Assembly: GCA_903813345.2 (NCBI GenBank)
Contig: CAIIXF020000001.1
Location: 25,916,001-25,980,000, forward strand
Direction: 5' to 3'
Origin: Owenia fusiformis
Lineage: Eukaryota
DNA length: 64,000 nucleotides
Every line of letters starts with the position of its first letter. The stretch's first letter is position 1. This document shows positions 1 to 24,720 of the stretch, one piece after another. The notes below the pieces were generated by a model that was given only the letters and a program-made list of their open reading frames with translations, was not told where the DNA came from and did not search any database. The translations under genes were made by a program, and so were the position numbers.

Positions 1-359
1 AAGAGAAATTTGAGCGGATCATTTGGCTGATCAAATCACATTACATAATAAAGATGTATATAGATCCACAGTGGGATAACTCAGAAGAGATTTTGATAAC
101 ATATGATGGATCTGTGAAAGTACTTTAATACCATTATTTGTGAAAATCATGTTTAACAAAGAAAAATGTTGAATCCTAAATATATTGATGGCCTATCTGT
201 CATTGCATGTCTTTTACTTAGACTCCATTTTTAATTTGTGTGTACGATATTCAATGATTTGAGTTAGTTATGCTTTTTTATCATAGGAAATCCTTTTTAA
301 GATAGTCATCCATCATACATGCAAGAAATCTCATAGGAAAACTGGCTTAAAACACTTAC

Positions 360-445
360 TTATTTTTAGCTTCAAGTTGGGCAATCAATTGTCTCTGTGC
401 AGCACTGGCCTCCATTGAGAAACTCAGTTCCTTTGGGCTTCTAGA
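360..445 (-). CDS. Dyb: Dystrobrevin coding exon 12, start of coiled-coil helix 1 (SRSPKELSFSMEASAAQRQLIAQLEAKN)
   Basis: tttcag acceptor (phase 0), gtaagt donor, 86 nt; resembles vertebrate ...DANKQQRQLIAELENKN. Confidence 0.93.
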
Positions 446-2319
446 CTGAAAGTACAAAACAAACGTTTTAGATCATTGAATGATTGAACAAGTTACACTG
501 ATACTAATGTTTATAACTGTTTCTGTTATAGCATATTATTATGGATATTTAGATCAATTTGATATAAGAACAATATAAAGATCAAGTAGTAACGAAAAAA
601 ATGGAAAGGGGGGTAAGTTCAGTGTTTAGCACCAGCCTGCACCAGCATGCGATTAAATGTTTCAAAGATTTCCTGGAAAGTATATATTTTTCATCCCTTT
701 TATTTTCTGTTTATATGTGTTATTCAATACAGTCAGCCATTAGCTGATTTGAACCAAACTAGATTAATAATTCATGTTTTGTCAACATGTATATTTATTA
801 TTCTCCAATGTGATACAGTAAATGGATCTCTTGGTGATGCATCAAATCTTTCACTTACTTTACATCATAGATCAGGACGGATTAATTGAATATTGATGAC
901 CTCTCAATTAATCTTCTTTCATACTTAATGAAATATACAAAATCAATCGAACCTTGGGTTTAATACACCCATGTTTTAATTGTCTTTCCCATATTATATT
1001 CCCATATTATTCTTACTGTTCTAAAATTTCTTTAGTATGAATTAACAATTTATGGATATGTAGGTTAAGATCATTTACTCTTAATGAATAATTCTGAGAC
1101 TAATATGACAAATGCTGACATTGCCTCTTTAATGTATTCGAAAATGTATTTTTTGATGTGAATCACTAGTTTATTAAAAATTGTGATTTATTTAGTCTAT
1201 CAAAAATTGAATGCCTTAAGAAACATGAAATAAAGGACACATGGCACATGTACTCACAAACTCTCATATAATAACACAATTTAAATTTTTTATGTCAAAG
1301 TTACTTACTCGAAAACTAAGAAAACTTTTGAAATGATAAAGACAGGTCAAATAGAGATTATTGATAGATTTAAAATGATATGCATATGGCTAAATACAAA
1401 TTGCAGGTTTTATTTGATGGATTGATGGACTGACACATAACCTATCTCATATGCTCCCAAAAACCATCGAGGACATAATAACGAAAAATAAATTTGATGA
1501 ACCAAACCAAAATATGGAGCTATTTTGATTTTTTCAAGAATCTTAATACAATTGTCAGAGTGACATAAGGTCCCACGAAGCATTGTTTAAAGCAGTTCAT
1601 CATACAGATCAGATCTGGCATGTTTAACCATGCAGCGCTATAGCATCAAACACAGGCTATGATATTGTCTAAAGAACCTGAAAACTTGACACATTATCTC
1701 AATACAAGCTCATTTTCCTGTCATATCCTATCGGCTTTGAACATCTAACATCATGCTTCGGTATTTTTCAAATCCAGCTACCATAGTAACCATTTTGGAT
1801 AAGAGCATTGCATTGATTCATAATACAAATGAATATGAACAGAAGGATCTTGAAACATCAAACATTATTAGACCTCTTAGATGTCAAGCTGCCTCAATAT
1901 TTGTATTTGTGAATTAACAAATATAATTTTCTTTTACTTCAGTATACTTTTATAATCTGAGAATAGAACTCTTAAAGCTATATAGGCAATTGCCAAAGAA
2001 CTGAGTTATTGACTTTAGAGTTCTGAATGGGTCATCAACCAATCTTTCCTCCTTAAAATCTTGTCAATTTCCTCTTATAGAGCAACCTTACAATAGCAAC
2101 AGAATTTATGGGTTGTTATGAGAATTATTCTTTTTCAAAATTACTCACAATTCAATTCCACTGATGGTATTTTGCCATTCTAATATTAAACTTACTGTTT
2201 TTTAATAATCGTTCTGTTTTCTGTATTCTATTCGTCTTTCTGTTTTCTATTTTTCATATTTTATAGAGATGTCCATTCATAGGAAAGAACCACAATTCAT
2301 AAATGATCAATATATAAAT

Positions 2320-2795
2320 AAAAAGACAACCCATATTTCATAGAAAGGACCCATTATTTCACAGAGAAGACTGATATATAAAAGAGACAACCCATATTTC
2401 ATAGTGATGACCCATGTATAACAGAGAAGGCCCATATTTCATAGGAATGACCTCTATTCTATTGAGTAGACCCATATCTCATAGAAAAGTCAATAGTTCA
2501 CAGAGATGACCAATATATAAGAGGCAACCCATATTTCATAGAGAGAACCCATATTTCAAAAAGATGAGCTATTTATAACAGAGAGGGCCCATATTTCAAA
2601 GAGGGGACCCATAACTGATAGAAAAGCCAATATTACATGACTGATATATAAAAGAGCAACCCATATTTCATAAAGAGGACCCATATTTCACAGGGATGGC
2701 TTATTATATATTACTGAGAAGACCTCTATTTCATAGAAATGACCCTATTCTACAGAGGACCCAACTCATAAAGGAGCCAATATTTCACAGTTTAC
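2320..2795. repeat. Degenerate ~21-22 bp minisatellite (acccatatttcatagagagg-like)
   Basis: Recurring cccatatttca motif. Confidence 0.8.
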
Positions 2796-3156
2796 TAATA
2801 AAGAAGCAGCACCTAATTTGTATTGTTTGATATGTCTCATAATGAAGCCTGGCACAATTTTGTCAGCTTATATTTTATCATGCCATATTTGGATTAATCC
2901 AAGGATTTACTGCTTACGAACAGGCTCTACAAGTAATAAAGAAGGCGGATCAATCAAATAAATGTCCAAATTGCACTCATATGTGTTTTTTCATACTCAC
3001 ACAATTGGAAGTAACTAAACTCCCTAAGGAAGCTTGAATCACTTTAACAGTGTTTCTAGAGGTGCAAACATATTCAGCTTTAAAGAGGATCATGGGGTAT
3101 AAATAGGGGCAGACTAATGGAACAGCCAAAATAACTGGATTTTTGGTATTTGCACA

Positions 3157-3232
3157 AATGAATAAACACAAGGAGCACACGCGTCTCAAACTCCCAACCT
3201 CGTGGTTACGGCGCCCAATCGCCTAGCCTGAA
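3157..3232 (-). mobile_element. Interspersed repeat fragment (same family as 61412-61508)
   Basis: Its reverse complement matches 61439-61508; both ORF translations contain RRVCSLCLFI. Confidence 0.7.
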
Positions 3233-6109
3233 CATCCCTGCGCGCAATTTTCTCAATTTCTGTATTCTGTACTTTAACTAGCTCTTAGTTTAAATAAATA
3301 AGAAATATGTATTAGATCATGAATAAACAGTTCCCACCATATTGGCCATAGGATTTAGTTGAAAATGTATCCAATTGTGAGCTTTTAGGGTGTACTACAG
3401 TCTATATATGCTTTTAAAGCTGAATATACAAGCAAACTCTTGCTTTCCCATTTGTGAGTTAGAACAATAACTTACTTATGGTATTTAGAATTTACAACAG
3501 AAAAAATTATCAAATTGTTACAAATAAATGAATGATATAAAGCGTTATTCCTTGTTCTTAAACCTATATCAACAGAAGAAATAATGAGATAGATGACCAT
3601 AAACTCAGTCGTGCCTAAAAATGATAACTTGACAAATGAAAACTAAGATTATGATAGATGAAGTGGCAATGAGATATATTACACTGCAGTTTAAGACTAA
3701 GACTGCAAACGTAGACTGCATATAATGCCTTAAATCAAATCCCATAGTGAAGGAATCTGCAATGATATATGACATATGGTACTTATTGTAGTCTGCTGCC
3801 GATTTTCAGGCATCTGTCAAATAAATAATTGAAATAAAAATATATATGTACATGGAAAATTTTGGTTGAATGTCATAATTTCATCTTGCATGATTACATC
3901 AATCTAAGGCAAAATTTCAAAGGGCAAAAAAAAATAAAAAAAGGGTAACATTGATGCAAGACTTATTGCAATTGTGTACATCTTTTTTGTATACTTTTGC
4001 TAAAAAGAACCTTTTATTCCATTAACTTAACAATTAGGAAAATATTTTAAGTAATCCTCCTGACATTAATCTAAATGTATCTTCTTATAATAAATTCACT
4101 CTCAATATTCAATGTAGTAATACAAAATTCTCCCGCACCATTAAGGCACATCTGTCAAAATAAACTAATATCTCCTACACAATGTATCCTCAAAATGTTA
4201 ATGAAACCTCCCATGAGATCTCCCCTCAGAAAAAAATAATCTTTCTTAATGTGTTTTTTTACATGGAGATTTTCAATTTGTGTGTAAATGGAAAATTCTT
4301 CAATTTTACAATCGCCGTATCTTGCACAAATTCAATTGATTTATTGGCGGAAACATTTCTTTCCACCTTTTTGTACTGATGACTAAGATCAATGACAGGA
4401 AACTGTTTAATGCCTGGTCACTGAATGGAAACAAAATTAAATGTATCAGAAGCTCTTCATTTAGTTGACAAGTAAATAACAGCAATGAACCAGACTTAGT
4501 ACGATCCTGAAGAATACTCCATGATCATTATACAACGATAATAGTAATGTAAAATAATGTCATCTTCTCCAAACGCCAATACAAACAATGAATGGTTTGC
4601 TTCATATTATTATTTCAAGAAAATCACAAAATAGGAATTCAATATGAAAACATGTAAAGTACTGGACAATCAATACGAAAGGATCCTTGAATAAATTGTC
4701 AACACAATTGATATACAAGTCATGTAACACAGCAATATTATTTACATACAGGATATATGCATAAAGCTCTCCAAAATCTCTGGTTGAGACTTGAATGAAT
4801 AATCAAGTACTTTTCGAAAATCGTGGGTGGAGCATGACCTAAAATGCTGCTCATGTCTCATGATTTTTATTGTGTATCTTATTACAATCACTCTAAATTG
4901 CTCCATACCATGCAAGCAACCATATTTCATACAATGTAATTCTCATAATGGCCTTCATGTTTTCACTTCTCCTCTATGATGTAACAGTGATTGATCTTCT
5001 AATGTAGGTTTTTTCGTAAAAATATAAAAATATTAAAATAATTTTTAGTGTGGTAATTTACTGATCAAATTCAATGTCTGGGTCCTCAGAACATTGTATA
5101 GATTAAAATAAATATGTCAATATATATATAGGTTATTTACTAAGAGGGATTGAATATGGGTTTTATTCCAAGGGACAATATCATATCATATTGCCCAAGG
5201 TCAATATATTTCATATTTCCCTGAAACAGTAGCATTATGGAATCAAGTTTGAAATTCTCAAAATTATGTCATATGCAGAGGATAACATGAAACATAATGT
5301 TTCTGAATCTGCTGACCTTGTAGCCAACACCCACACATCTAATTACGAACAGGAAACACTTCACCATAACAAGCCCACATTTCCTATAGATATTTGGCAC
5401 AACATAGCTGAACAAAGAAACAGCCACAATTAATTGCAAAACTGAGTCTTATACAGAATTCATTGTATTATATTAGATCTTGATCTTTGTCTTCCTCCTT
5501 GAAATATTTCACCATTGGAAAAACATGTTCCTGTTGAGAAGTAAATAGGTTAAAGATACAGTATGCTATATAGGTTTCTCTCCTGGACAATCAAAGATGT
5601 CCCATTATTAGTAATATAATATCTTACATATCTTACCAATATAATTGAGAAAATCACCGAATAACCAACTGTCAGAACACAATTGAGTTTATTTGCGGCG
5701 ATCGAGGGAAAATGTGATCAAGATACAAGAACACGACCATCTGCAAACTGGGCATGTGCCTTAAGCCAGGCCGCCAATCAGATTCAAAGCCAGTTTTTAA
5801 TTTCTTTAAGAATTTCCTATTTATGGAGCTCTTTTGGTCACATGAACATACGAAAACAATTAGACCAGTCAGCTGTGATTGGGGCTTCTTCATTGGTAAG
5901 TAGATAGTATAGGTGAATATGTGGTATGGCTCAACATGCAAAAAAAGTCCAGTTTATTTTTGAATTTGCTTTCCTATGGCAATTGGCAACACCCCTCTTT
6001 AATGAATGCATCAAATATGTATGATACCAAGTGACAGAACAATGAGAGCATTATACTAGATATCTATATTAAGAGCACCATACTGATTGAATGTATGACA
6101 GCATCTTAC

Positions 6110-6322
6110 CATGAAGAGCATTGTACTGAGTAACTGTACATATGGAGAGCTTTGTTTTTGACATGAGTGCACTGACCCTCCTGCTGACTGTCTTAGAAGT
6201 AGCACAATAACAAGAGCTACAAGAGCTATTACCTTAATATGATCAATATCATTTGAGAAACAGATTTGAGGGCTAAGGCCAGGAATAATTAATGAGAAAT
6301 ATTCCCATATGAGATATAACAT
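6110..6322 (-). CDS. Candidate short alternative first exon (minimal coding MLFM at 6121-6110, or a 71-aa version with a hydrophobic segment)
   Basis: Strong donor ATG|gtaaga at 6110/6109, in phase 0 with exon 445-360; ORF track 6056..6328. Confidence 0.35.
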
Positions 6323-6876
6323 ATACACCTCATTCTGATAATCATAGCAATTTTAACACGACAGTTGAATTTAACCCATGAAACATGAAAAGCTCTGTAT
6401 TTTTCAGAACATCGATGTTGAATTTGACTTTATCATAGAGGCAATCTAAAAAAGATGGGATTAAATAATCCGAAGTCACTGTGACAACTCTGTACCCATT
6501 TACTCAGATAATATTAATTATTAATTGAAATGTCAATAGAAACGCATTACTTTTTTCCTAATATTAATAGCATAATTGACAATTACTTAATGCCATCCAT
6601 ACTCATCAATTAACCATGTATCTTTCCAAACATCAAATGAAAGACAAAACAATACAAGATAATATAAAATGACTGACACAATGCATTTTATTAATGCAAA
6701 TTCATATTTTATTTTGAAAAGGGACCTAATGTAGCTAGTCTATTTGCACGATATTATGAAATAATGAATTAAAAATTTAGATTGTTGTCTCATTTAATTC
6801 TAATTTCATTAGAGCAACTGATGAGTCAAGCAAGTTTATTATTTGCAATTCAACTATTTCATCCTCTTCACAAAAC

Positions 6877-7152
6877 AGAGCTTACTTCAGATTGGGGATG
6901 TCACATTTTTAATGCTTTGTTCATAATACAAAGCTCTATATAAAAATAGAGTTTACTTCAGATTGGGGATGTCACATTTTTAATGCTTTGTTCATAATGC
7001 AAAGCTCTATATAAAAATAGAGTTTACTTCAGATTGGGGATGTCACATTTTTAATGCTTTGTTCATAATGCAAAGCTCTATATAAACAAAATAGAGTTTA
7101 CTTCAGACTGGGGATGCCACATTTGCAATGCTATATAATGTAAAGCTCTATG
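6877..7152. repeat. 71-bp tandem repeat, ~4 copies
   Basis: agagtttacttcagattggggatgtcacattttt... recurs at about 6877, 6948, 7019 and 7093. Confidence 0.9.
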
Positions 7153-7165
7153 TATACCTCTTCAA

Positions 7166-7349
7166 AATAGAGAGGTTTCATCGAACACTGTTTTTAACCC
7201 AACGTATCCAAAATCTGTAATGCATTCACCAGATTTATGCATTGTAGTTCAATTAAAATGAGATATGGTTACAAATGTTGTAGTTCAATTAAAATGAGAT
7301 ATGGTTACAAATGTTTTAGCTATAACCCATCATGTGAAACCTCTCTATT
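7166..7349 (-). mobile_element. Internally deleted MITE, inverted relative to 7727-8306
   Basis: AATAGAGAGGTTT...AAACCTCTCTATT termini; its subterminal sequences are reverse complements of those of the longer copy. Confidence 0.8.
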
Positions 7350-7726
7350 AATAGTCCATCCTTTCTAAATGGAACAGTACCTTTACTAAGTGATATTATT
7401 TGGGATGCTATTTCCTTATGAAGACAATTAGGCATGCTCAACTGCTTTATATAGGAGAATTGATTGGTTACTGACACTATAGTCTTTGAATATAAGAACC
7501 TATAACTTCAAATGGACATTTATTAATCAGGTAATACAATACCCTTTAATTAGCTATTCTTGAGTTATCGCGCAAGGCTATAAGACTACATCAAGGCACC
7601 ATTAATACATAATACATTCCTTAATTAAAATAGAAATAAAAGTTTGATAAAAAATAATGTGATGTCCAAGGTTCTTTTACAATTCCAGCAAAATGAATGT
7701 TCTTCTATAATTATCTTCCTCAGAAT

Positions 7727-8306
7727 AATAGAGAGGTTTTGCACAACAGGTTATAGCTAAAACGTATCCGCAATCACATCTTGTTTTAATATCCTTGATG
7801 CGAGTAGAAATAATCCTGATTTACATCATTAAAAATTCACAATTCAATCATATTTGGAATCTACATGTAAAATAATAAAATCACATCTAGATATGTGGTT
7901 TTGAAAAGAGTTTATCAACTTTGAAAATTTAATTTTCTTTGAAAATGTGACTTCTAGGTCGGGGAGATTCCCCATAGACCCAATGTTGAAAATCCACAAA
8001 AAGTGAAATATCTTTTCTTGTGTTGGGCAGATAATATTTGCTTTTACTGGACCTGTTTTAATTTGTATGTCTATCACATACATAAGGGTAATATGAAAAG
8101 TGAACCACTAAAACTGATGAATATTCAGGTTTAAGGGAATTTTGTAATACCCTGCCATGTTATTTCCCCCAAATCAGCCACCTGGTGGCGAAACTGGTAA
8201 CTACCTACTCGCATCTGAGTAATTGAACTGCTACGCATAAATCTGGTGAATGCATTATGGATTTTAGATAGGTTGACCTAAAAACATTATGCGAAACCTC
8301 TCTATT
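7727..8306 (+). mobile_element. Non-autonomous TIR element (MITE), superfamily unassigned
   Basis: Terminal inverted repeats AATAGAGAGGTTT / AAACCTCTCTATT. Confidence 0.8.
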
Positions 8307-9254
8307 CACTCAAATTATCTATTGGAATCAATCTTGAATATCACTAATTTCTAGAAATAGTGAAATCAGGGATACGTTACTTTATATTGTTTCTGATTTC
8401 TATTAATTTCAGTCAATGTATCAATCCCCATAATACTATATCCGGTAGGCCTACACAGTATTAAAAAATATTGACTCAATATTTGTTCTAGAAATTGTTC
8501 AGACAAAAGAAGCCCCCTCTTGTTTTCCCAAGGGCAAGTCTACTTCGTTAGCTAATTAATATTTTATATACAATTGCTAATGTAAAGAAACATTTCTTCT
8601 ATTCGTTAACTTAACACTAACAATATGATAGAATTAATCGAAAAATCTCAGACAATTTGCTCTTACAAATATACCTCGGTGAAATTATTAATGAAGAATA
8701 GCTCAAGCAAAATAAAGAAATAAATCAAAACTTTTATGAAACAATGCTAATTTATCAAATAACATCAGGCAGAAACCATACTGAAAATGTACATACATGT
8801 ACTAAAATGGTAAAACAGCTATAATCATTGGTATAATCCATTTGTCTTGAGAAAAGGAACAAAGATATATTTCTACTAACTTCGGAAGAAAGATAATATC
8901 TTTATTAGAAACTAATAGAAAAACTTCAATGTATGAGTAATCCCGCTATCTCCCTTTACCAGTGAAATCCACAAGTGAATATTGGTATTTTCCAATTATC
9001 AAATCTTAATATATTTTTCTCTGTCAAAGAATTACTTACAATATCAGAAAAAGTCAGGATAGATATTGCCAATATCACAGCAAATCTTTCTGTTTATTTA
9101 TTTGATCTATTAGTCCTGGACTGCAATCTACTTTATTCCTTTAAATAGGACATAAGCCCCTGAGGGAATGACTGACCTTCAACATATGAACTGAATACTA
9201 ATGTTAAAATGTTAGTCGACAAAACACATATGGTTCACAATCTGTATGATTCAC

Positions 9255-9655
9255 AGCAAAGATGACATAACCAGTCATCTGAAAACAGCAAAGATGACAT
9301 AATCAATTGTACGAAAGCAGCAAAGATGACATGAGCAACTGTTTCATAATAGCAAAGATGACATAACCAATGAATTGTCTGAAAACAACAATGATGACAT
9401 AACCAATTGTCCAGAAAACAGCAAAGATGACATTACCAATTGTCCAGAGAACAGCAAAGATGACATACCCATTTGTCTGAAAGCAGCAAAGATGACATGC
9501 CAATTGTTTGATAATAGCAAAGATGACATTACCAATGAATTGTCTGAAAACAACAATGATGACATAACCAATTGTCCAGAAAACAACAAAGATGACATTA
9601 CCAATTGTCCAGAAAACAACAAGGATGACATAACCATTTGTCCGGAAACAGCAAA
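9255..9655. repeat. 33-bp minisatellite (gaaaacagcaaagatgacataaccaattgtcca)
   Basis: About 11-12 units; accounts for the periodic ORFs on both strands. Confidence 0.9.
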
Positions 9656-10576
9656 GTTGAAAAATAAAACCCATACAAATATCCATCTCAAGGGAGTAGT
9701 AAACATAAACACATTAGCAACAAAACTACCTTATTTATGGCTACATAGTGAAAATAAAGCACATAATGGGTGGCAATGACATTATAGCCAAAAGTTTATA
9801 TCTGCTTTATTAGCTTGCACCATGTTAAAAGTGAAAATTGTTATGGCTTTACAATAACGCACAAAGCTAACACAGAATATGCACTCCATTAGGGACGGCA
9901 TTTAACACATAAAACCAAAGTACCCAATAAAGATGACACGATTTACAGGATTCAATTCGACGAAATGTTCCTGCTTGATTTGCTGTTCAGTTCCGCTGAA
10001 ACTAATCTAATTGCAATCACTGCTGCACTATATACATCGAATCAGTGAGATTTCCAAAATTGCATCTCCATGGCAATGAATATAAAATAACTTCTAGGTA
10101 CAATTAATCTAGTCATCATTTATTACATCTTTAAGTTGGTCAAGCTATGACGTATGAATACCCACGGGGAATAGCCACACCTAGTACCCACAACCATTCG
10201 TCCCTATTCAACAAAGTGAAAAGACATAAATATGGAGGGCAAATTCTTCTGAAAATATATCAGAAAATATATAAATCATCCATCAGAATAATGCGAACCT
10301 ACAAAAATGACAATGCAATTCGTAACCCAGCCTCTTTCGCTTAAATCCATATTTCACTTGAGTTGTACACTAGCACACCAAAAAAATAACCCAAATAATT
10401 AAAAGAGCCAAGGCATATGTTGCACCATTGATCAATGCACCTCTGCTCCAATGATCTTAATTTTTCCTTGAAAAAGCCATGAATTATAACACAAAATGAC
10501 ATAATTTGGAAGTCTAACTATTATTTATCGAATGTGAGAAAAGAATTAGATTATTGAATCATTTCAATTACATTTG

Positions 10577-13500
10577 TCACGATATTATGAAAATTGATTG
10601 TCTTACTTTTGAGATGAGTTTAGTTTGTCGCTTTACACGAGCTCTCAGAGGCATCCAATCCGCCTGTTGCAGCTTAAAGAACCATTCACTCAATTGACCA
10701 ATGACACGATTTTGGCTGGACGATTTTTGCGTAACAACACCAGTTGAACAGAACGTTAATCTATTATCTTCTTGATGTGAGTGTTCACCTGGGATCGGTT
10801 GCATGGCAACAGTTGTATCTTTCCCATTAAGTAGACTAGTACAGTTAGAGTGAGTTAAAGTAGATGGGTTTGGGTAAGTATTGTCAGTATAAGTTGAGGT
10901 CGATTTGATGGGGAAAGTACATGTCCTGAGAGTATCATTGATCGTGCTTGCTGGCTCAGGCCTATTGGATTTCAATCTCATAATAGGCTGTGTAGACACA
11001 ACATTATCTAATCCATGTCCATTGATCCCAGACCCAGAGTAAACGTGCTTATAAGAACAATGGGATCTATCCCCAGAAATGCTTTGTGTGCTCAGTGTCA
11101 TATTACCGTCACTTGATTGGGAATTGATTTCACTATTTTTTGGGATTGTTTTGTTGTTAGGGATATTCAAACTGACCCCTCTAGGGATTGGAAAGTCAGA
11201 TTTATGGTTCGGGTTAATCTGATGATTTTTATCAGTAAGATCACCAGTCAGCACTGATTGGTAGAGAGTGTCATGTTGTGGGGAGATTGATCGACTGTTT
11301 CTACCTGGTTCGTCACCTACATATGGCATTGATTTACTAACATTATATTGTTTTCTCACGCAATCAATAGGCAAGCCTCTCTCCTTAAGAAGCTCTATAT
11401 CTTCACTTAAACAAGATGGCATTAAGTCTATTTCATTGTGAATATCTTCTTTTGTTTCTGCGAGGATCTTACACTCAAGTGGATTTCTCATATCCTTGTC
11501 TATATTCCGGTTCAGACTACAATTTATTGTAACGGCTTTCCTATTTGCCTTAGCATGACATTTAGACGATAATGCTTTGTCTTTTGTGAGACTTTCTAGA
11601 GCCTTGAAGATCTCCCGGGATACAGCCTCATCACTAGGGGAGGATGGTGACACAGTTGGCTGCCCTTGTGGTCCAGCATGACATTCTTCATAGTTATCTG
11701 ATGTATGATTCTGCCTAGCATTAACTAATATAGGCTGGATTATGGCTGGGTGATTTATTGGGAGTTGGGTATCCACTAAGGTAATCAGACTTGAAGTTTG
11801 ACTGTCATCATTCATAATTGTATTAACTAAATAGGTATCATTCCAGTCAGATGAACTTATGTCACTATCTGTTTTAGAACCTTGATTTGGTCTTTTCAAT
11901 CGAGCATTCACCTCATTAGCAAGTAAATGTTGTTTTGATAAATCATGTGGGGCAATGGAAGTATTTGCAGCTGAGTTATCATTGTTACCTGATAGTCCAA
12001 CTGGTTGACATATGCTTATACTGTGCTCCCAGTCCTCAGCAAAGCCAATATCAATATTTTTCAGAAATTCTGAATTGATTGAGAAACCCTTTTGATGGGA
12101 AATGTTTTTTAATTTGTCTTCCTGTGGTTTTTTATGAGTTTGCTGTTCAATGTTATTACAAGCACTGGGATATTTTGTTCCTTTAGGAAGTTTGTCTTTT
12201 TCTTTCTTTTCTCTGGTAGAATCAATGGATTGTAAGCTTTCTTTACTTGTAAGGTCACCATAGCTATAAAGTGTACCACTGCTGTTGTCTTGCACACGAG
12301 ATACATGCGCCAAAGTACTTTGAGAACCAAATGGATTAACACTCTTACTTATGCTACAGTTGCTATCTACTAATGTATCAGAACTATCATCATTATTTGA
12401 CATAGTTTGTGTACTGTCTGAATCACGTCTGATAAAATGGGGACTACTTTCTACTATTCCAGATTTACATGAATACTGGACACAACTAACATAGGACGGG
12501 TTTATAATTGTACAATTCTGTTCATTAATCTGTTTAGCATCATGGATACATGGTTTTACATTTTTGAGACCACTACCAGATGTGTACCTCTCCCATATAC
12601 TTTGATATTCCTTACATCTACATGTTACATCTTGTGCTAGTATATCCTCAGCAGTAACTTCAAATATAGCACTGTCCAGTTTGTTCAACCGTTTATACTT
12701 TCCATGGCGCATTGTCACAACGTCCTCAGTATTCTTACCACCTGTGTCTGAGGTTTGTTTTGTTGTACATGTAGTCTTATCATCACTGAGAGGACTAACA
12801 CTGGTTTGTGAAACATCTGTCATGTGGCCACTATCAAAGCTATTACACACCTCAAGTTGGACAATTGGCTTTAGGGTATCACACATGGTTTTGGAGGTTT
12901 TCTCTTTCTGATCATTATTATCAAACCCATGGTCTATATCTGAATCACTGAGATTTTCATTAGAATTAAACCTCACCTTCTGTTCTTTTGACTCAATACA
13001 AGTTTGTTTTAAGCTGTTTTGAATTAATCTACTACTTTCATTATCATTTTTTATTTTTTCATTGTCATTAACAAATGTTGGTTGTTCATTTTTATTGATG
13101 CTTTCAATGTTTTGAGTTTCACCATTATTTGGACCTACAGTGTTTGTTCTTCTACTATGATTTTCGATTTCATTGATCAAAGCTGATTGTTCATTTTTAT
13201 TGGTCCCAGTGGTATTTGGCTCTATACTGCTATTTATGGAAGACATAGTATTACTGACCATACGATAAGCCTTTCTGTCGAAGCTGTCTAGGCAGCTGTT
13301 ACTATGGCAACAGTCCCCTAATTTCCTTGCGTTGCTGTCACCAAGACATAAATCACTGTCCTGATTGTTATTCATCTCACCATCCGAAAGTCTCAACACT
13401 TTTTGCATACCCATCTGCCTTCCTGCATCAGAATTTGATTTCCATTTCATTACATCTCTTTTTGATACTGACTTCTCTACAACTTCAGCAACAATTTGTT

Positions 13501-14380
13501 CCTTTGAGGTATTCACAGACTTTAACATACTTTTCAAGTGTCCATTACATTTTGGAATTGTTGGTTTAGTTTTTGGAGAAGATTCCCCATCTTCAAGTTT
13601 GATTTGAATTTTTGGAGGGGTTTGTTTAATCTTACCTTTCTTTTTGGGAGAATCCTTAGCAATTATATCAGTAGATGGAAGTTTTCTTTGTTTATTGAGG
13701 CTTTCAGCTAAAATATCACTACAAGTTTTTGTTCTTCCAATAACTTCCAGTTTGTGTGATGATCTATCCAAGTTTGCTTGCCTCCGCATTAATTTGCGTT
13801 TCACACTGTATGTTTTAAACATAGTAGCTGCAGATTGTACCACTTCATCAGTAGTTCGTTTTTTGCACTTTTTAAACATGTTGACAGCATTTACAAGAAT
13901 TTCTTCTTGTGTTTTAGTATATGAGATCTCACGGTCAACAGTTTGGAGTGGTTCATCTTGGTTTTTTATATCAGATATGATATCACTTAGAGACTCCTCA
14001 GAGCTGGACTGATGCATTTCCTCAGTGATACTTTTCTGACGTCTCTCAAATGTTTTTTTATTTGGGCTTTCAAGGCTTTCCAATGAGCTACAACTTGAGG
14101 TATCGTACCCAGTCGTTACTCTGTTAAAATCTTGTCCAATTTGAAAACCAGTCGTATTGGGCCAGGGTGGAATATCACCGTAGCTGGGACTCACTATGTC
14201 CCGACCTGTTCCACAACATTTAGTAAATACCCAGGCATCAAATGGTAAAATCTTTTTTCCTTTATGACGTGTTTTCCAATATCGTTTACGTCTTGTCTGA
14301 ATAGGCTCTTGCTTTAATTCATGTTCTTCAGACTGATCACTCCATGTTTGAGAACTATGTTGTAGTTGCAATGAATCCAT
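10577..14380 (-). CDS. 1267-aa uninterrupted S/T/N/K/D-rich ORF; probably a giant alternative first coding exon of dystrobrevin (donor at 10607)
   Basis: 3.8-kb open frame in AT-rich DNA, same strand as Dyb. Good start context (atcATGG). Phase-0 donor AAA|gtaaga just before the stop. No transposase, RT or other folded domain recognised. Confidence 0.85.
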   Translation of the reverse strand: MDSLQLQHSSQTWSDQSEEHELKQEPIQTRRKRYWKTRHKGKKILPFDAWVFTKCCGTGRDIVSPSYGDIPPWPNTTGFQIGQDFNRVTTGYDTSSCSSLESLESPNKKTFERRQKSITEEMHQSSSEESLSDIISDIKNQDEPLQTVDREISYTKTQEEILVNAVNMFKKCKKRTTDEVVQSAATMFKTYSVKRKLMRRQANLDRSSHKLEVIGRTKTCSDILAESLNKQRKLPSTDIIAKDSPKKKGKIKQTPPKIQIKLEDGESSPKTKPTIPKCNGHLKSMLKSVNTSKEQIVAEVVEKSVSKRDVMKWKSNSDAGRQMGMQKVLRLSDGEMNNNQDSDLCLGDSNARKLGDCCHSNSCLDSFDRKAYRMVSNTMSSINSSIEPNTTGTNKNEQSALINEIENHSRRTNTVGPNNGETQNIESINKNEQPTFVNDNEKIKNDNESSRLIQNSLKQTCIESKEQKVRFNSNENLSDSDIDHGFDNNDQKEKTSKTMCDTLKPIVQLEVCNSFDSGHMTDVSQTSVSPLSDDKTTCTTKQTSDTGGKNTEDVVTMRHGKYKRLNKLDSAIFEVTAEDILAQDVTCRCKEYQSIWERYTSGSGLKNVKPCIHDAKQINEQNCTIINPSYVSCVQYSCKSGIVESSPHFIRRDSDSTQTMSNNDDSSDTLVDSNCSISKSVNPFGSQSTLAHVSRVQDNSSGTLYSYGDLTSKESLQSIDSTREKKEKDKLPKGTKYPSACNNIEQQTHKKPQEDKLKNISHQKGFSINSEFLKNIDIGFAEDWEHSISICQPVGLSGNNDNSAANTSIAPHDLSKQHLLANEVNARLKRPNQGSKTDSDISSSDWNDTYLVNTIMNDDSQTSSLITLVDTQLPINHPAIIQPILVNARQNHTSDNYEECHAGPQGQPTVSPSSPSDEAVSREIFKALESLTKDKALSSKCHAKANRKAVTINCSLNRNIDKDMRNPLECKILAETKEDIHNEIDLMPSCLSEDIELLKERGLPIDCVRKQYNVSKSMPYVGDEPGRNSRSISPQHDTLYQSVLTGDLTDKNHQINPNHKSDFPIPRGVSLNIPNNKTIPKNSEINSQSSDGNMTLSTQSISGDRSHCSYKHVYSGSGINGHGLDNVVSTQPIMRLKSNRPEPASTINDTLRTCTFPIKSTSTYTDNTYPNPSTLTHSNCTSLLNGKDTTVAMQPIPGEHSHQEDNRLTFCSTGVVTQKSSSQNRVIGQLSEWFFKLQQADWMPLRARVKRQTKLISKVRQSIFIIS

Positions 14381-17300
14381 GATAGCTCATTTGTCCTTCG
14401 AAGACATCTAATATAAAGAGTAATTTTAATCCATGACACAGGAAGCTCATAAATTCATCATTTATCATGATTTCTCCTATAGGCTACATGTAATCTCCAT
14501 CGAGTTCAATGTTTTGCCATGTCATACCCTGATGAGGCTTATTTCGAAGAATTGCTCAGATCATCTTTAACAGTCGTAATAAAGTGGAAATTAGCTGTTT
14601 GTCCTGTATATGTCAACAGTATATACAAATGATAAGTAGCAATTACTTTAATGCCTGGATGAATCGATCATCATCTTGAACAGTTTTATCTTTTTTATAA
14701 GTAGATGAAAAAAAACATCACCCATTATTTCAAGGACTGAGATGTCCTTAAGCTCCTTCTCAATTCTAAATCATCTTCACCTCTATGTGCAATATTGGTA
14801 ATTATAAAAGTCACTGTTACATTTTTATTTGTTCCGCCCAAAGTCTGATCAAATATTGGCATTCCAATTCATTCCAGAGCAAACTCTGTAAATGTCAGTC
14901 CTTATCTCGGTAAAGATGTGTATCCTGAAAGTCTCAAATCAGATTCTCCGGGAATTCTAATTTTATCCAATATCTAATAAGTGTTCTGTTTCAATACATT
15001 TACTTGGAACTTCTTATTGATGTAACATTTCCAGGGTTGTAATCAAGTAATTTAGTAATGTCAACAAAATAAATCATCTATATACTTCATAGGCTTTGAT
15101 CTTGTCAAATATGTCCTATTATAGTACTAGCTTGTTTGACTTTATAGAAATCTGCTATGAATTAACGTTTGCACTGTTTATAAGTTACATCAACAATGAA
15201 TACACATCGATAACTTGTCCATCTTGTTTGACATACATCCACAGGTGTGTTCCCAACAAAGGATCAATAGTCAATATTAACACCAACAATATCGCTCTGA
15301 TCTTTGTAATTGTACAAGTGAATAGGTCTGCTTTATTGTTACTGTGTCCTTCCAAACAATCAATGTTTGATCAATTCCTCAATTGCATCTTAGCAGTCTG
15401 TCTAACTTACTGACGAGATCGACAGATACCCCCACAAGCAAAAACTGTTCACCAACACGGTTTAATCTGTGTTATGATGCCAAAACATTGCTATAAGCTC
15501 TAGAGCATTATTGAGTCTCAGATGTTATAGCAGTGTCATGATATTTCCATTTTTAATCATCAGTTCTGTAGAACGTAACCATATATGCAGATTAATGCTT
15601 GAAACACTGTAATAAATAGCTGTCACGCTAATTAATCATGCTTAGCTTTTATCCAAATTGATGCACAGAAGTAGACTAAGAGCACAAAAAGGTATTTGCT
15701 TCAACTGCAAAGTTGTGTACAATATTGGAATTGTAGTTTCATTGTCTTATACAGGGAAAGTGTTTAATAGATTTAGGCGTATGGTAAATCAAGGAGAAGG
15801 TGATGACATTATCCTAGCTGGTAATCCATTCAATATATCATCATTAGGATTCTTTTGGATCTGCTTTTAATCCTGCAGCACCATAGTGTCTGAGTACCTT
15901 ACTTTCAGAGTCAATCATTTGTCATATTCTCCATATGTAAAATATACTTACTCACTTTCTTTATATTCAATAATTCAACAATTTCCTACATATTTTTCAC
16001 ATATATAATAAATCTTCAATTGCCTTATTTTTAATCATCATTTCCTACATAAATACTGTACATATTCTTCCATAAATTGAACACACAGTGATCTAAACAT
16101 CATTATAAATATCGCATTTGAAGTGCAAAATGGCCATCTTGTAAATTGCCCAACATGCCCTAAACCTAATTAGATCTTGGCACAAATCTGCTCCTGATTC
16201 TGTGAAAACTCAAATCAAAAAGATGAATAGCTTTCTTGATGACAAAATATCTTGTGTCACCCACCCAGCCATACACCTGCATGCCTGCCTGCCTAGCAGA
16301 GCAAAATGGCAAAAGTCGATATAGCAATTTTCAAATTAGATAAAAACATCTATTTTCCAATATTTGCAATCCTCCTACATCCAAAATATATCTTCTCCAT
16401 CCTGTAACTTAACTATATTGACTTCATTACAATTGATTAAATATTCACAAGGTTTGATGGCGTGAGAGACCTCTAAAGTGTCTAAAGGACCATTGTGTGG
16501 GATACTCCAGGTTTATTCAAAGAGTACCTGAGAGAAGCCATACTTCACAGCTAAATGAGGAATAGTTGCAGATCCCATTAACCCATCTATACTCTAGGAA
16601 ATTGTCAATTTAATCAAGAAAATAAAACTGCTCATCTAAAAGGTTATGGGTTTATCCATTTCTCAATATCTATTCAAACCTTTCCGTTTATGGACAACTT
16701 CAACTGATTTTCTCAATCTAAGGCTTATGTCTTATGGAGAATATTTCATTATTTCCTCAATGTAGTGTTTTATTAATCTATAAAATGAAAATATAGCACC
16801 TAGTGTGTAATAAATCTAAGAGTCTAACATCTAATATTTCTGTTTTATTGCCCTAGATCTGTATTTTAGTTTGCATGCTTTATTCAGCCTTAATACAACT
16901 GCTAAAGTTAATTTCTGATGATATGCAAATAACCTTATGGTAATCAGCTAGCCACAAATGAGCTGAGCTAACAAGACTAATAGAGTAACATATCCCAACC
17001 TTGTCAACTCAGATCAACAGAATGATATCCCCGATTCTGCATATAAAAACATCATTTGAAAAAAACATCAGTGCTGAAACAACTGAAAATGTGCTTGATC
17101 ATCGTGAGTTGAAAAGTACATGGGTTTCAACTGAGTCTTACAAGAGGTCTTGCACTCGAGTTCAATACCTACTCTCAGATTCTAGGAAAGCGTGACATTC
17201 CTTATTTATCTGGCATGACACTTTAATATAATTACAAGACCAGTAAATATACTCAAGAGGAATGATTGATCCTCCAATAGTCTTACAAACGTATCTAAAA

Positions 17301-20279
17301 CATGGCGTGTCTATTTCAGCAGTATACCAACCATATTTACACACAATATGATAGTTTTATATTTAATCACTTTAATAGCGAACCCATTACACGTCGTGAC
17401 AAAATGTCAATTTCGCAATTACTTTTTTGATATGCTTGTCAATCAGAGTAATCACTGGAAAAATGTTTTATCAATTTTTGATCATCAGTTAATATTATGT
17501 GGATGAGCGTGTCATGCTATATATAAATGGGGGTTACAGACAATGGGATGTTACACTCAATAGGGTTACATATATAGAGGGTTACAAACTGGGGTTACAA
17601 CTTCAAAGTGCTACAGACAGTCAACATTTCACTCATTTCTATATAACCGGATAATGAGACTTTGTTTAATGGAAAACTAAACATCTATCTATCTGCATGT
17701 GACTTATTCCACCTAATCACCTGAGGGGGAAATACATCTCCCTCAAAATCATAGAATGGTTCAGACCATTGACTTTAAAAGGTCTAGACACTAGACAGCT
17801 AGGGCAGGTGCATTTATTATTCATATGCAATAAATAGAAGTGAATACCTGTAGACCACTAAATCGTAAACTAAAGGGTAGAATATAAGCAATCCAAAGCA
17901 AAACATTTTTTGAAATCAATATTGCCACAAATGATTTTCTATGAAATCAAAGCATTGATGTTCATAAGCCTTATAGACCCAGGTGCTCACAACTCTTTAA
18001 GTAATTATTTTACAACCATTTATAAAATATAGTGAACACTAAGCTCATGTGCCAAGGGCAAAAAATGATTCAAAACAGTATGCTAAAGATAAATAAATTA
18101 TTACTTAGAAGATCAGATTTTCTTGATTGCAATCTATGGCTACCATGTCATTTACAATCATTGGCAGACAATGGTTGCCAAGCAATGGTTGCCAAGCAAT
18201 GGTTGCGAAACATGTCAAACTCATTTAAGAACAAAAATTTCAAACCATAAATTTGACAAATCCTACATCATCTTATCAACTATTCAATAAAGTTTGACAT
18301 TTCTCACAAAAGCCAGTCGAAAAAATGGCGCCAATAATATTCTAGCATCCCTACTTCTACACGACAAGAAATTCCACATATGGGATCATGTAATAGAGTA
18401 AACCACACTCAAAGAACCAGAATGATGGCGCTACAAACACTCTAAATGGCACTAAAATATTATGACATGTAGGAATATATACTGAATTCAAAGTACCTGG
18501 ACAATATTTGCTTGATACTTGATCCTGAACTTTTAACCTTTCCCATTTAAGTACGAGTCACATGATATTGGAAGTAAGGGAATTTTTAAGTAGAAAGTAC
18601 ATTGATGGTATTACTCTTGGGAGGCCAGTGGGGTTGTTACCATATTACAATCAATATGTGTTGAACAATAGGCATATTTACTTATCAATGTCATCACGAC
18701 AAAACACAGCACAGCACATGTTGGCACAACATAAAACCTCATCACATTTAATTGCTCAATGGTGACTATACATTGGCTGTATTCCCATGAAATTGGTACA
18801 TTTCTACAGTAACCAATAGAAAATCTACGGTCACCTTCCGGTCTCAATACGGCTTATCCAGTTGTTTACTGGCTGTAGAGTCTCCATAGATATCATAACT
18901 CAGGTTTTTTTTCATTGCTACAGTCACATTAGAAGTAAAACAAAAGATGTAGCAAAACCTAAGCAAGGTTCCAGAATCCGTTGAATAACATTTGGCAAAC
19001 AGCCTGAACAAAAATCTTCTAAGAAAAACACTTTCAAGTTTAATAACATAATAAATAATTCATATATTCATAGAATTTTTTTCTCCAAAATATTTCAATC
19101 AGAATAGTCATATAAACTTGTATAATTTACACTGAAAACAACCCTGAGATAATTGATGTCATTATTTTCCAATAAAAATCAGTGGTAATGGATTAGGACT
19201 CCCTTGTAGCTGGTAAAACGTACAACGACACATAATTATTTTTTCTACAATTCTTTAGTATTTTTTCATCAAACATGAAAGAAAAAACTATTGAAACCAT
19301 GAATGCCAACTATCCAATTGAGTAAAAGAGATGCACATGTATATATAACACCTTCATTATGTTAGACAAGATATGTTTGTCACTAACACAAGGGTGGATA
19401 TCATATAAATGGGTGTGAATGGTCAATGGGGATGTTTAACAGCCAAGTGATCTTTAATCAAGCATGGCAGAAATCAATACAGAATATTCTATCCAATTTA
19501 ACATTAACACTGCTCTAAAAGAACATGAGACAACATAATAAAGCAGTTTCTTATACAAATTGCACGTTTTTGCAATTGGATATATTATCGAAGCATTTTT
19601 TGTTATGAAACATCATTTTGTAACCATGAGAATTATATTTTATGAGGGCTCAACAGGAAATCATATGTAAGACAAATGTATTTACGACAAAATTCATTAT
19701 TTTGTCCATAATTAATTATGGGTTTAAGCTTGCATGCCCATTTTGTAACATATAGAATAATAGGCGATGTTATGTCTCAAAACATTCATTTCCGATATGT
19801 AACAGTTCAATGTATGGCATAATTCTTTAAGGATAATCCTTGAGAAGAACAAAGCTTAAGACAATTAGCTTTTATGGCAATGTTTTCTTGACAGCAACAT
19901 TCTTCAACATTCCAATATTAGGATGCAATTATCATCTCAAGCCTAAAGAGCAAATCAATTAAAACAACACAATATCATATTCTAATAAAAATATGAGAAT
20001 TCCAGCACTTCATTTTGTTTTCCTGAGGATTTCAAAGAAAAGCCAATTTCAACTTATTAATGTGTTTAAGCTTAAGGATAACACCATTGATTTTCTACAA
20101 GCAATAATAAAAATTAACTTCAACTTCAGACAATGTCATCTAATAATGGCATATTCAGGCCCTCTTTCTGCCACACTAGAAAGAATCTGATAGAAAACTT
20201 TGATCTTTAAGAAGGCGGGAAGCACTGAGCTGAGAGACCTTTCCTTAAGTAGACAATGATACCATTGATGTTGTTACTT

Positions 20280-20430
20280 GACAATGGCGTCACAACTTAC
20301 CAATGACAATGGCGTCACAACTAACCAATGACAATGGTGTCACAACTAACCAATGACAATGGCGTCACAACTAACCAATGACAATGGCGTCACAACTAAC
20401 CAATGACAATGGTGTCACAACTAACCAATG
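20280..20430. repeat. 25-bp tandem repeat x6 (gacaatggcgtcacaactaaccaat)
   Basis: Six near-identical adjacent units with no spacers. Confidence 0.95.
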
Positions 20431-24617: not shown

Positions 24618-24720
24618 AGTGTTATGAGCATCAGCAGCAAGTCTGGCAGCGTATCTGGCTATGAGACGATGTTCATCATCTATTCTGTTAGAGTCTAAAC
24701 TGTTGAATCTGCTATTTGGA
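24618..24720 (-). CDS. Dyb: Dystrobrevin coding exon 11, syntrophin-binding region (SPNSRFNSLDSNRIDDEHRLIARYAARLAADAHNT)
   Basis: ORF track 24492..24734; tttcag acceptor, gtaagt donor; 103 nt, ends in phase 0. Confidence 0.95.

What the first reader, a model, noticed from the sequence alone, without database searches (positions are those of the whole stretch)
10607..14380. Giant 3.8-kb alternative first exon that would graft a ~1258-aa disordered N-terminus onto the dystrobrevin coiled coil
Seen: a 1267-codon uninterrupted ORF on the Dyb strand, inside the intron between the syntrophin-binding exon (ends 24618, phase 0) and the coiled-coil exon (starts 445, phase 0). Near its end is AAA|GTAAGA at 10607/10606; 14380-10607 is 3774 nt = 1258 codons, so the donor is phase 0. 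Splicing to 445 would give ...RQTKLISK|SRSPKELSF... in frame. An in-frame stop (14389-14387) just upstream of the ATG means the ORF cannot be an in-frame internal cassette. Known: the dystrobrevin coiled coil binds dystrophin, and internal-promoter isoforms with unique N-termini exist for dystrophin (e.g. Drosophila Dp186). Inference: an internal promoter yields a dystrobrevin without EF-hand, ZZ or syntrophin site that could tether a large disordered scaffold to dystrophin. I know of no description of such an isoform; gene finders could split it off as an 'uncharacterised protein'.
Basis: partly seen in the sequence, partly recalled or inferred. Interest (0 to 1): 0.85.

Follow-up and report, generated by a model that had tools for sequence, protein, structure and literature searches.

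The report
Giant orphan exon spliced onto dystrobrevin
In the annelid Owenia fusiformis, a 3.8-kb coding exon hidden in a dystrobrevin intron is transcribed and spliced in frame onto the gene's coiled-coil part, giving a large isoform with a unique, probably unstructured front end that has no detectable relative elsewhere.

Summary
The ORF at 14380-10577 (minus strand) has 1267 codons; the next longest stop-free run in the window is 189. It lies in the 24-kb intron between the dystrobrevin syntrophin-binding exon and the first coiled-coil exon.

The predicted splice 10607->445 is real:
- A deposited partial Owenia fusiformis protein (CAH1773947.1) reads ...TKLISK|SRSPKELSF...
- One RNA contig of run X3 carries the same GT..AG joint.
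- No laid contig continues past the donor.

Polymorphisms in the RNA contigs are 11 synonymous to 10 non-synonymous (pN/pS about 0.23-0.33), so the frame is under purifying selection.

- The exon is the first coding exon, not the first exon. A 1.6-kb leader with 48 upstream ATGs and a spliced 5'UTR intron (16024-16264) precede it.
- The internal promoter is inferred only, from a coverage edge near 18.56 kb.
- The isoform is absent from two raw RNA runs.

No relative was found in any other species among 1.84 billion representative proteins. There is no Pfam domain and no confident fold. Function is inferred, not shown. I class this as a new variant of the internal-promoter isoforms known for dystrophin and dystrobrevin, of moderate interest.

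The parts
10607..14380 (-). Coding part of the giant exon: ATG at 14380, 1258 codons, phase-0 donor after 10607
   Evidence: RNA contigs cover 10607-14479 in X3 and 10620-15404 in X1. The deposited models P0003 (residues 1-451) and P0002 (residues 573-1258) match at 100%.
10577..10606 (-). Start of the intron: donor GTAAGA, then 9 read-through codons and a TGA stop. No laid contig in X1 or X3 covers it
   Evidence: The depth of bin 10006-10672 is fully accounted for by exon sequence plus one 6.6x contig at 9888-10250.
446..10576 (-). Rest of the 10,161-nt intron (446-10606) removed in this isoform. It holds a minisatellite and a high-copy inverted-repeat element
   Evidence: X3 joint 445/10607, skips 10161, ends CT..AC on the plus strand, which is GT..AG on the minus strand. 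Repeats.
360..445 (-). Shared first coiled-coil exon of dystrobrevin (86 nt), the acceptor for both the giant exon and the syntrophin-binding exon
   Evidence: X3 contigs join it to 10607 and, through a 255-nt loose end, to the end of the exon at 24618.
14381..16023 (-). 5' leader contiguous with the ORF in RNA. The stretch 14381-16022 that was scanned holds 48 upstream ATGs
   Evidence: X1 contig 13155-15404 and X3 contig 14708-16022. uATG count.
16024..16264 (-). 5'UTR intron, 241 nt, GT..AG
   Evidence: X3 joint 16022/16264 (cut +1), depth 30, 85 nt on the shorter side. Splice-site sequence read.
16265..18563 (-). Upstream transcribed leader at lower depth (about 5-20x). Its upstream edge is near 18563. 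A TTAAAAAT motif sits at 18589-18582. This is a possible internal promoter, not shown
   Evidence: Contigs 16271-16800, 16393-17193, 17305-17571, 17702-18303, 18034-18289 and 18385-18563. Depth is about 1 at 18677-19343 and 0 at 19344-20000. Sequence.
24618..24720 (-). Canonical syntrophin-binding exon (...RIDDEHRLIARYAARLAADAHNT), which the giant exon replaces as the partner of exon 445-360
   Evidence: The acceptor at 24720 is read from the sequence only.

Best explanation
The ORF is the first coding exon of an alternative mRNA of the Owenia fusiformis dystrobrevin gene. Transcription appears to start inside the 24-kb intron that follows the syntrophin-binding exon. It runs through a long leader with many upstream ATGs and one small 5'UTR intron, then through 1258 codons of unique sequence, and splices from 10607 in frame to the first coiled-coil exon at 445. 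The predicted protein has a serine-, lysine-, threonine-, asparagine- and aspartate-rich N-terminal region with no detectable domain. That region carries basic clusters and a Cys-Cys motif near its start. It is fused to the dystrobrevin C-terminal half and lacks the EF-hands, the ZZ domain and the syntrophin-binding helix. Judged from relatives, the whole protein would be about 1600 aa. Shown here: the ORF, its expression in two runs, the splice joint in RNA of one run and in a deposited protein model, the absence of laid contigs past the donor, and purifying selection on the frame. Inferred: the internal promoter; continuation into the remaining dystrobrevin exons; translation from ATG 14380; and the mode of action. 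For the mode of action I propose that the protein docks on dystrophin through the retained coiled coil, and so competes with canonical dystrobrevin while bringing a different N-terminal scaffold and no syntrophin site.
For: (1) The deposited partial protein P0002 (CAH1773947.1, Owenia fusiformis) equals ORF residues 573-1258 followed by SRSPKELSFSMEASAAQRQLIAQLE. (2) In one search, the X3 contig record 10 (530 nt, depth 99) covers 10607-11106 and then 30 nt of exon 445. The joint skips 10161 nt with GT..AG ends on the minus strand. Thirty nt is what a 31-mer assembly graph would leave at a branch, if the contigs were built with 31-letter words (the word length given is that of the run index). 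The other branch, the end of exon 24618 joined to 445, is also present as a 255-nt loose end. (3) Depth in X1/X3 is 41-112 across 10673-14674, against 0-3 in most other intron bins. No laid contig lies between 10251 and 10606. (4) Of the 21 differences listed inside the ORF, 11 are synonymous and 10 are not, against a site ratio of 1:3.9. pN/pS is 0.23, or 0.33 at kappa 4, with binomial P of 0.001-0.011. (5) The frame opens 2 codons before the ATG and closes 9 codons after the donor. (6) The start context has A at -3 and G at +4. (7) The boundary ...RLAAD..N.|(A/S)RSP.E is the same exon junction in Lingula, Lineus, Mytilus, Ruditapes and Capitella dystrobrevins. (8) Precedents exist. [quoted passage not shown] Fly Dp186, Dp205 and Dp117 have unique N-terminal domains (PMC2840664, passages).
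Against: The joint was seen in 1 of the 4 runs laid (X3). The X1 contig stops at 10620, 13 nt short of the donor. The two raw RNA runs, X11 and X13, have 0 reads on 10006-14674. The tool labels X1 and X3 'RNA?' as a guess; I take them as RNA because of their exon-like depth and GT..AG joints. The deposited model and X3 may rest on the same kind of data and are not independent. The 1642-nt leader stretch scanned holds 48 upstream ATGs, which argues against efficient scanning to ATG 14380. No relative was found in any other species, so there is no cross-species test of coding or of exon position. The 21 polymorphisms come from a truncated list covering the whole 20 kb ('128 more are not shown'). 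Difference density in the 5' third of the ORF (12 listed in 1226 nt) is not lower than in the leader. Dystrobrevin exons downstream of 360 lie outside the window.
Confidence: 0.8

Rival explanations
1. The RNA and the splice are real, but the product is not made in meaningful amounts or has no function. On this reading it is a young, lineage-restricted exon that is transcribed and poorly translated.
For: 48 upstream ATGs in the scanned leader. No homolog in any other species. GC3 of 0.30 is close to the intron background and below the 0.42 of the dystrobrevin exons. No domain and no confident fold. Absent from X11 and X13.
Against: A 1258-codon frame has P of about 2e-41 by chance and could not stay open without selection. 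pN/pS is 0.23-0.33. The frame is trimmed exactly to the ATG and to the donor.
Confidence: 0.1
2. There is no internal promoter. The leader is spliced from upstream dystrobrevin exons, so the canonical reading frame ends in the leader, giving a truncated dystrobrevin, and the giant ORF is a downstream cistron.
For: Contigs cannot show transcript starts. 201 loose ends were not shown.
Against: Depth falls to about 1 at 18677-19343 and to 0 at 19344-20000. The X1 contig 18385-18563 is laid over its whole length with no overhang, and no AG precedes 18563.
Confidence: 0.06
3. An independent nested gene encodes a 1267-aa protein that ends at the stop at 10577, and only occasionally splices into dystrobrevin.
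For: The ORF has its own ATG and a stop 30 nt past the donor. The deposited annotation gives separate models.
Against: No laid contig in X1 or X3 runs past 10607. The only 3' continuation seen is the joint to 445. The one deposited model that reaches the 3' end carries the joint.
Confidence: 0.03
4. The ORF is transposon-derived or multi-copy.
For: It lies in a large intron that holds other repeats.
Against: No Pfam family reaches its curated cut-off, whole protein or in three parts. Only the two models of this same locus match among 1.84 billion representatives. No terminal direct or inverted repeats flank it. RNA depth is 41-112, against more than 48,000 for the true repeat at 7338-8671. The whole genome could not be searched.
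Confidence: 0.01

Closest known systems
Human alpha-dystrobrevin-4 and -5 (intron-7 promoter, exon 7b; PMC2796648, passages read)
   Same: The transcript starts inside the dystrobrevin gene. [quoted passage not shown] Expression is restricted: brain in humans, and here present in some runs and absent in others.
   Different: Exon 7b is about 270-290 bp. Translation is thought to start at an internal methionine of the shared sequence, so no unique peptide is added and the syntrophin-binding sites are kept. Here the specific exon adds 1258 unique residues and is spliced in after the syntrophin-binding exon, which is therefore lost.
Drosophila dystrophin short isoforms Dp186, Dp205 and Dp117 (PMC2840664, passages)
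   Same: Internal promoters give isoforms with unique N-terminal domains joined to the shared C-terminal module of a dystrophin-superfamily gene.
   Different: They are dystrophin products, not dystrobrevin products. They keep the WW, ZZ and coiled-coil domains. Their unique N-termini are reported as conserved among Drosophila species. Here no relative of the unique part was found in any other species.
Vertebrate Dp260, Dp140, Dp116, Dp71 and G-utrophin first exons (PMC1790709, passages)
   Same: Alternative first exons lie in large introns. That paper states that where they encode protein the sequence is highly conserved.
   Different: The peptides those first exons encode are short as far as I recall (their lengths appear in no call here). 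The exon here is 3.8 kb of coding sequence and has no detectable conservation.
Small optional inserts at the same junction in Lineus longissimus isoform X4 and the Capitella teleta model
   Same: Same intron position, between ...RLAAD..N. and (A/S)RSP.E..., so this intron hosts extra coding sequence in other spiralians too.
   Different: Those are internal in-frame inserts of roughly 15-30 residues within full-length dystrobrevin. They are not a new N-terminus.

Membership tests
Dystrobrevin gene product | Encoded by exons of the dystrobrevin locus and sharing its coiled-coil exons in frame | tested here: met
   Exon map. In-frame joint to exon 445-360. Only the first coiled-coil exon lies in the window.
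Dystrobrevin gene product | EF-hand pair and ZZ domain (PF09068, PF09069, PF00569) | tested here: not met
   These exons (55648-50881) lie upstream of the isoform's start. The ORF has no Pfam match. The isoform is a dystrobrevin-gene product but not a canonical dystrobrevin.
Dystrobrevin gene product | Syntrophin-binding helix (...DEHRLIARYAARLAA...) | tested here: not met
   That exon (24720-24618) is bypassed. The ORF ends ...EWFFKLQQADWMPLRARVKRQTKLISK instead.
Dystrobrevin gene product | Complete H1/H2 coiled coil and binding to dystrophin | not testable with these tools
   Exons downstream of 360 are outside the window, and no genome is held. The coiled-coil interaction is taken from passages of PMC10293626.
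Internal-promoter isoforms of the dystrophin/dystrobrevin superfamily | Transcription start inside an intron of the host gene | tested here: inconclusive
   The coverage edge is near 18563 and depth is zero at 19344-20000. Contigs cannot show a start.
Internal-promoter isoforms of the dystrophin/dystrobrevin superfamily | Isoform-specific 5' exon spliced to shared downstream exons | tested here: met
   Joint 10607->445.
Internal-promoter isoforms of the dystrophin/dystrobrevin superfamily | Unique N-terminus conserved in related species | tested here: not met
   2 of 1,835,955,588 representatives match at E<=0.001, and both are Owenia models of this ORF. 1 hit among 3891 candidates. Unannotated genomes of close relatives could not be searched.
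Transposable-element protein | Transposon protein domains, many copies, terminal repeats | tested here: not met
   Genome-wide copy number was not testable.
KRAP/ITPRID (PF14722), a lead from the atlas | Match to the KRAP_IP3R_bind domain | tested here: not met
   Atlas scores of 0.78-0.81 are in the chance range. There is no PF14722 match at E<=10 for residues 1-200.

The most novel reading that the evidence does not exclude
A lineage-restricted 1258-residue coding exon, with no detectable relative anywhere, arose or was captured inside a dystrobrevin intron and is now kept by selection. It turns the ancient dystrophin-binding coiled coil into the docking module of a new, stage- or tissue-specific scaffold protein. 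This protein would compete with canonical dystrobrevin at dystrophin and would remove the dystrobrevin-borne syntrophin site from the complex. It may use its own N-terminal polybasic plus Cys-Cys motif for membrane attachment, in place of the Cys cluster seen at the N-terminus of canonical spiralian dystrobrevins.
Probability: 0.3. Interest if true: 0.65.

Novelty: new variant of a known kind. Interest (0 to 1): 0.45.

Why it matters
Dystrobrevin and dystrophin are ancient partners whose isoform diversity has been studied almost only in vertebrates and flies. This is a concrete, RNA-supported case in a slowly evolving annelid. An orphan polypeptide longer than canonical spiralian dystrobrevins (the full-length models found here are roughly 600-1040 aa) is attached to the one part of the protein that binds dystrophin, while everything that defines canonical dystrobrevin is dropped. 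If it is translated, it is a natural experiment on what the coiled coil alone can recruit, and an example of how a large new coding exon becomes part of an old gene. It also corrects the public annotation, which holds the exon as two partial unnamed proteins.

Tried and rejected
- Own-genome search for copy number: no genome is held.
- Run search: no RNA holder is listed on record. Six coded runs hold 0.76-0.80 of the sampled words, and only X1 and X3 of these were laid.
- Pfam on the whole ORF and on three parts at E<=10: only a sub-threshold UBD match (E 0.22, 12 bits against a cut-off of 27).
- PDB sequence search: 0 matches at E<=1.
- Atlas: the best scores are 0.85 and 0.78, within the range shuffled proteins reach. 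The KRAP/ITPRID lead was tested and rejected.
- AlphaFold2 without an alignment: mean pLDDT 34 for P0002 and 41 for P0003. There is no confident fold, and single-sequence predictions are weak evidence either way. No fold search was run on these models.
- Search for giant proteins ending in a dystrobrevin C-terminal half: 4 hits among 5516 candidates of 1545-4410 aa. They are a DNMT3A-named model, two wasp leucine-rich-repeat models and an octopus dystrophin. None is an analogue, and this negative is weak.
- Search with the ZZ exon: 99 of 99 candidates are dystrobrevins of other species, the best at 92% identity. No 100% Owenia model came back, so the canonical Owenia C-terminus could not be retrieved.
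- Codon-usage correlation with the dystrobrevin exons: r is 0.49 in frame and 0.56 in frame +1, so it is uninformative.
- Rfam on the window: 0 matches.
- Earlier findings of this scan: nothing relevant.
- Literature searches for dystrobrevin + Owenia and dystrobrevin + annelid + isoform returned 0 papers. None of the 15 titles listed or the 10 concerns an annelid isoform.
They may hold stage and tissue levels for the two partial models.
Full report
**What is there**

On the minus strand an ATG at 14380 opens a frame of 1267 codons that ends at 10577. A TGA lies in frame two codons upstream of the ATG, at 14389-14387. The sequence AAA|GTAAGA sits at 10607/10606, and the frame closes nine codons later, VRQSIFIIS*. 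14380-10607 is 3774 nt, or 1258 codons, so the donor is phase 0.

The frame is far longer than chance allows. It has 1269 stop-free codons, against 189 for the next longest run in the 64-kb window. The longest run in 200 shuffles was 181, and P is about 2e-41 from base composition. G+C is 0.42/0.40/0.30 at codon positions 1/2/3.

**Context**

tblastn with the Lingula (P0008) and Capitella (P0054) dystrobrevins maps dystrobrevin exons on the minus strand at these positions:
- 59969-59868
- 59675-59598
- about 55648-55440
- 54516-54409
- 53471-53295
- 52982-52875
- 51045-50881 (ZZ domain)
- 48168-48046
- 40222-40127
- 24728-24619 (syntrophin-binding helix)
- 445-360

The syntrophin-binding exon ends ...AHNT|gtaagt at 24618. 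The next exon starts ttcag|TCT at 445. The boundary ...RLAAD..N.|(A/S)RSP.E is the same exon junction in Lingula, Lineus, Mytilus, Ruditapes and Capitella proteins. Lineus isoform X4 and the Capitella model carry small extra inserts exactly there. All of its coordinates are correct.

**The splice is real**

A word-indexed search found one protein among 3891 candidates: P0002, 711 aa, 'unnamed protein product, partial [Owenia fusiformis]', accession CAH1773947.1. It equals ORF residues 573-1258 followed by SRSPKELSFSMEASAAQRQLIAQLE, which is the predicted junction. There is no acceptor in front of residue 573, and the model stops 11 nt before the end of exon 445-360. It therefore looks like a transcript fragment.

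The published Owenia annotation was built from StringTie, Trinity, Mikado, Augustus and PASA (PMC9977687, methods passages). I did not confirm that this accession belongs to that gene set.

I laid four coded runs on window 1-20000.
- **X3:** one 530-nt contig at depth 99 covers 10607-11106 and then 30 nt of exon 445. The joint skips 10161 nt and has GT..AG ends on the minus strand. Thirty nt is what a 31-mer assembly graph would leave at a branch, if the contigs were built with 31-letter words. The other branch is present too: a 255-nt loose end at 445 is the reverse complement of the end of exon 24618, with one synonymous difference.
- **X1:** the ORF contig stops at 10620, 13 nt short of the donor, so it shows no joint.
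- **Depth in X1 and X3:** 41-112 across 10673-14674, against 0-3 in most other intron bins. The depth of bin 10006-10672 is fully accounted for by exon sequence plus one 6.6x contig at 9888-10250. No laid contig continues past the donor.
- **X11 and X13 (raw RNA):** 0 reads on 10006-14674. They do have a few reads on the dystrobrevin exon bin 1-667, with first mates on the plus strand as expected for a minus-strand gene.

In total the joint was seen in 1 of 4 runs, the exon is expressed in 2 of 4, and it is absent from 2 of 4. The tool labels X1 and X3 as RNA only by guess. Their exon-like depth and GT..AG joints are my reason to treat them as RNA. They may not be independent of the deposited model.

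**The 5' end**

RNA does not start at the ATG.
- An X1 contig runs without a break from 13155 to 15404. The upstream stop is therefore in the RNA, and the ORF cannot be read in frame from the syntrophin-binding exon.
- An X3 contig runs from 14708 to 16022 and then jumps to 16264. Read with the stated one-base shift, this is a 241-nt GT..AG intron at 16024-16264.
- Lower coverage (about 5-20x) continues to 18563, falls to about 1 at 18677-19343, and is 0 at 19344-20000.
- The contig 18385-18563 is laid over its full length with no overhang. No AG precedes 18563, and a TTAAAAAT motif lies at 18589-18582.

This fits an internal promoter near 18.56 kb, but contigs cannot show a start. The giant exon is the first coding exon, not the first exon.

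The 1642 nt of leader from 14381 to 16022 hold 48 upstream ATGs, although the main ATG has A at -3 and G at +4. This is the main argument against efficient translation.

**Is it a coding sequence under selection?**

The X1 and X3 contigs differ from the window at 21 listed positions inside the ORF. Eleven are synonymous and 10 are not, against 769 synonymous and 3005 non-synonymous sites. pN/pS is 0.23, or 0.33 with a transition bias of 4, and binomial P is 0.001-0.011.

Two caveats apply. The list is truncated (128 further differences over the 20 kb are not shown). The 5' third of the ORF shows no fewer differences per base than the leader.

The frame is also trimmed to the ATG and to the donor. 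Together these results say the frame is, or very recently was, translated and kept.

**What the protein looks like**

- **Composition:** Ser 12.7%, Lys 8.6%, Thr 7.7%, Asn 7.7% and Asp 7.0%. Mean hydropathy is -0.87 and aromatic residues are few.
- **Family and structure matches:** no Pfam family reaches its cut-off and there is no PDB sequence match. Atlas scores are in the chance range.
- **Fold prediction:** AlphaFold2 without an alignment gives mean pLDDT of 34 and 41 for the two deposited halves. It predicts only low-confidence helices, including one at ORF residues 1243-1256 that runs into the junction. This agrees with a mostly unstructured polypeptide but does not prove it.
- **Motifs:** basic clusters lie at residues 30-43, 170-176, 194-201 and 246-253. 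Residues 30-62 read RRKRYWKTRHKGKKILPFDAWVFTKCCGTGRDI.
- **Possible membrane motif:** canonical spiralian dystrobrevins also carry a Cys cluster near a basic stretch at their N-termini (sequences). A membrane-acylation role for this motif is my inference and was not tested.

**Relatives**

HMMER with residues 59-1258 against 1,835,955,588 representatives found 2 proteins at E<=0.001. These are P0002 and P0003, the latter being 451 aa and equal to ORF residues 1-451. Both are Owenia models on the same 62-Mb contig. No other species matched.

A search for proteins of 1545-4410 aa ending in a dystrobrevin C-terminal half gave 4 hits among 5516 candidates. Three carry EF-hand and ZZ domains: a DNMT3A-named fish model, a wasp model that also has collagen and leucine-rich-repeat domains, and an octopus dystrophin. 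The fourth is a leucine-rich-repeat protein with 23% coverage. None is an analogue.

The exon therefore looks lineage-restricted. Unannotated genomes of close relatives could not be searched, and disordered sequence diverges quickly.

**Rivals**

- **Independent nested gene ending at 10577:** contradicted by the lack of laid contigs past the donor and by the only 3' continuation seen being the joint.
- **Transposon origin:** no support. There are no transposon domains, no flanking repeats and only single-locus protein hits. RNA depth is far below that of the true repeat at 7338-8671. Genome-wide copy number could not be checked.
- **Real but poorly translated or functionless young exon:** remains possible because of the uATG-rich leader and the lack of conservation.

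**Comparison with what is known**

[quoted passage not shown] Their specific exon 7b is about 270-290 bp, translation is thought to start at an internal methionine, and the syntrophin sites are kept (PMC2796648, passages).

Fly dystrophin Dp186, Dp205 and Dp117 have unique N-terminal domains conserved among Drosophila species (PMC2840664, passages). Vertebrate dystrophin and utrophin short isoforms use alternative first exons, and PMC1790709 states that where these encode protein the sequence is highly conserved (passages).

The Owenia case works like these: an alternative 5' end joined to a shared C-terminal module. It differs in three ways. The unique part is 1258 residues long. It has no detectable relative. 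It replaces everything except the coiled-coil half, including the syntrophin site.

The role of the coiled coil in binding dystrophin is taken from passages of PMC10293626. Searches for dystrobrevin with Owenia, or with annelid and isoform, returned no paper.

**Verdict**

The internal promoter, the full fusion, translation and function are inferred. This is a new variant of a known kind and of moderate interest.

Noticed in passing
window 7181-8294 (high depth over 7338-8671): A high-copy element. Inverted repeats of 75 nt (7181-7255 and 8220-8294, 83% complementary) flank a stretch with summed contig depth of 48,000-66,000 in X1 and X3. The raw RNA runs give tens of reads on both strands, with hundreds of loose ends at 8176 and 8224-8226. 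It looks like a widely dispersed, transcribed inverted-repeat transposon in the dystrobrevin intron.
   Followed up: partly
window 9253-9660; 20279-20435; about 25185-26300: Minisatellites in dystrobrevin introns: a 33-nt unit (165-nt higher order) repeated about 12 times; a 25-nt unit repeated about 6 times; and a long array that gives repeat-built stop-free runs of 128-189 codons on both strands.
   Followed up: no
window 5169-5207: The raw RNA reads show an 'opposite strands' joint, with 19 reads in X11 and 29 in X13, suggesting a hairpin-forming or inverted sequence that is transcribed.
   Followed up: no
window 13056-13202: An imperfect 42-nt direct repeat inside the ORF, 79% identical and 105 nt apart, which encodes the repeated NKNEQ motif. 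The X1 and X3 contigs break at 13066/13155. The gap between the two deposited partial models (13027-12665) begins just below it.
   Followed up: partly
window 58106-58414 (-): A 102-codon stop-free run (...TKKNLKLCTKLLVDFAQESNLTPLSELTADIL...) in the intron between the dystrobrevin exons at 59598 and 55648. It is not dystrobrevin-like and its nature is unknown.
   Followed up: no
dystrobrevin locus, window 24619-59969: The search with the ZZ exon returned 99 dystrobrevins of other species and no 100%-identical Owenia protein (best 92%). The canonical Owenia dystrobrevin may be missing or fragmented in the protein collection.
   Followed up: no
P0006 (Lineus longissimus isoform X4) and P0054 (Capitella teleta): Both carry extra residues exactly at the junction between the syntrophin-binding exon and the coiled-coil exon, so this intron is a recurrent site of optional coding sequence in spiralians.
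   Followed up: partly
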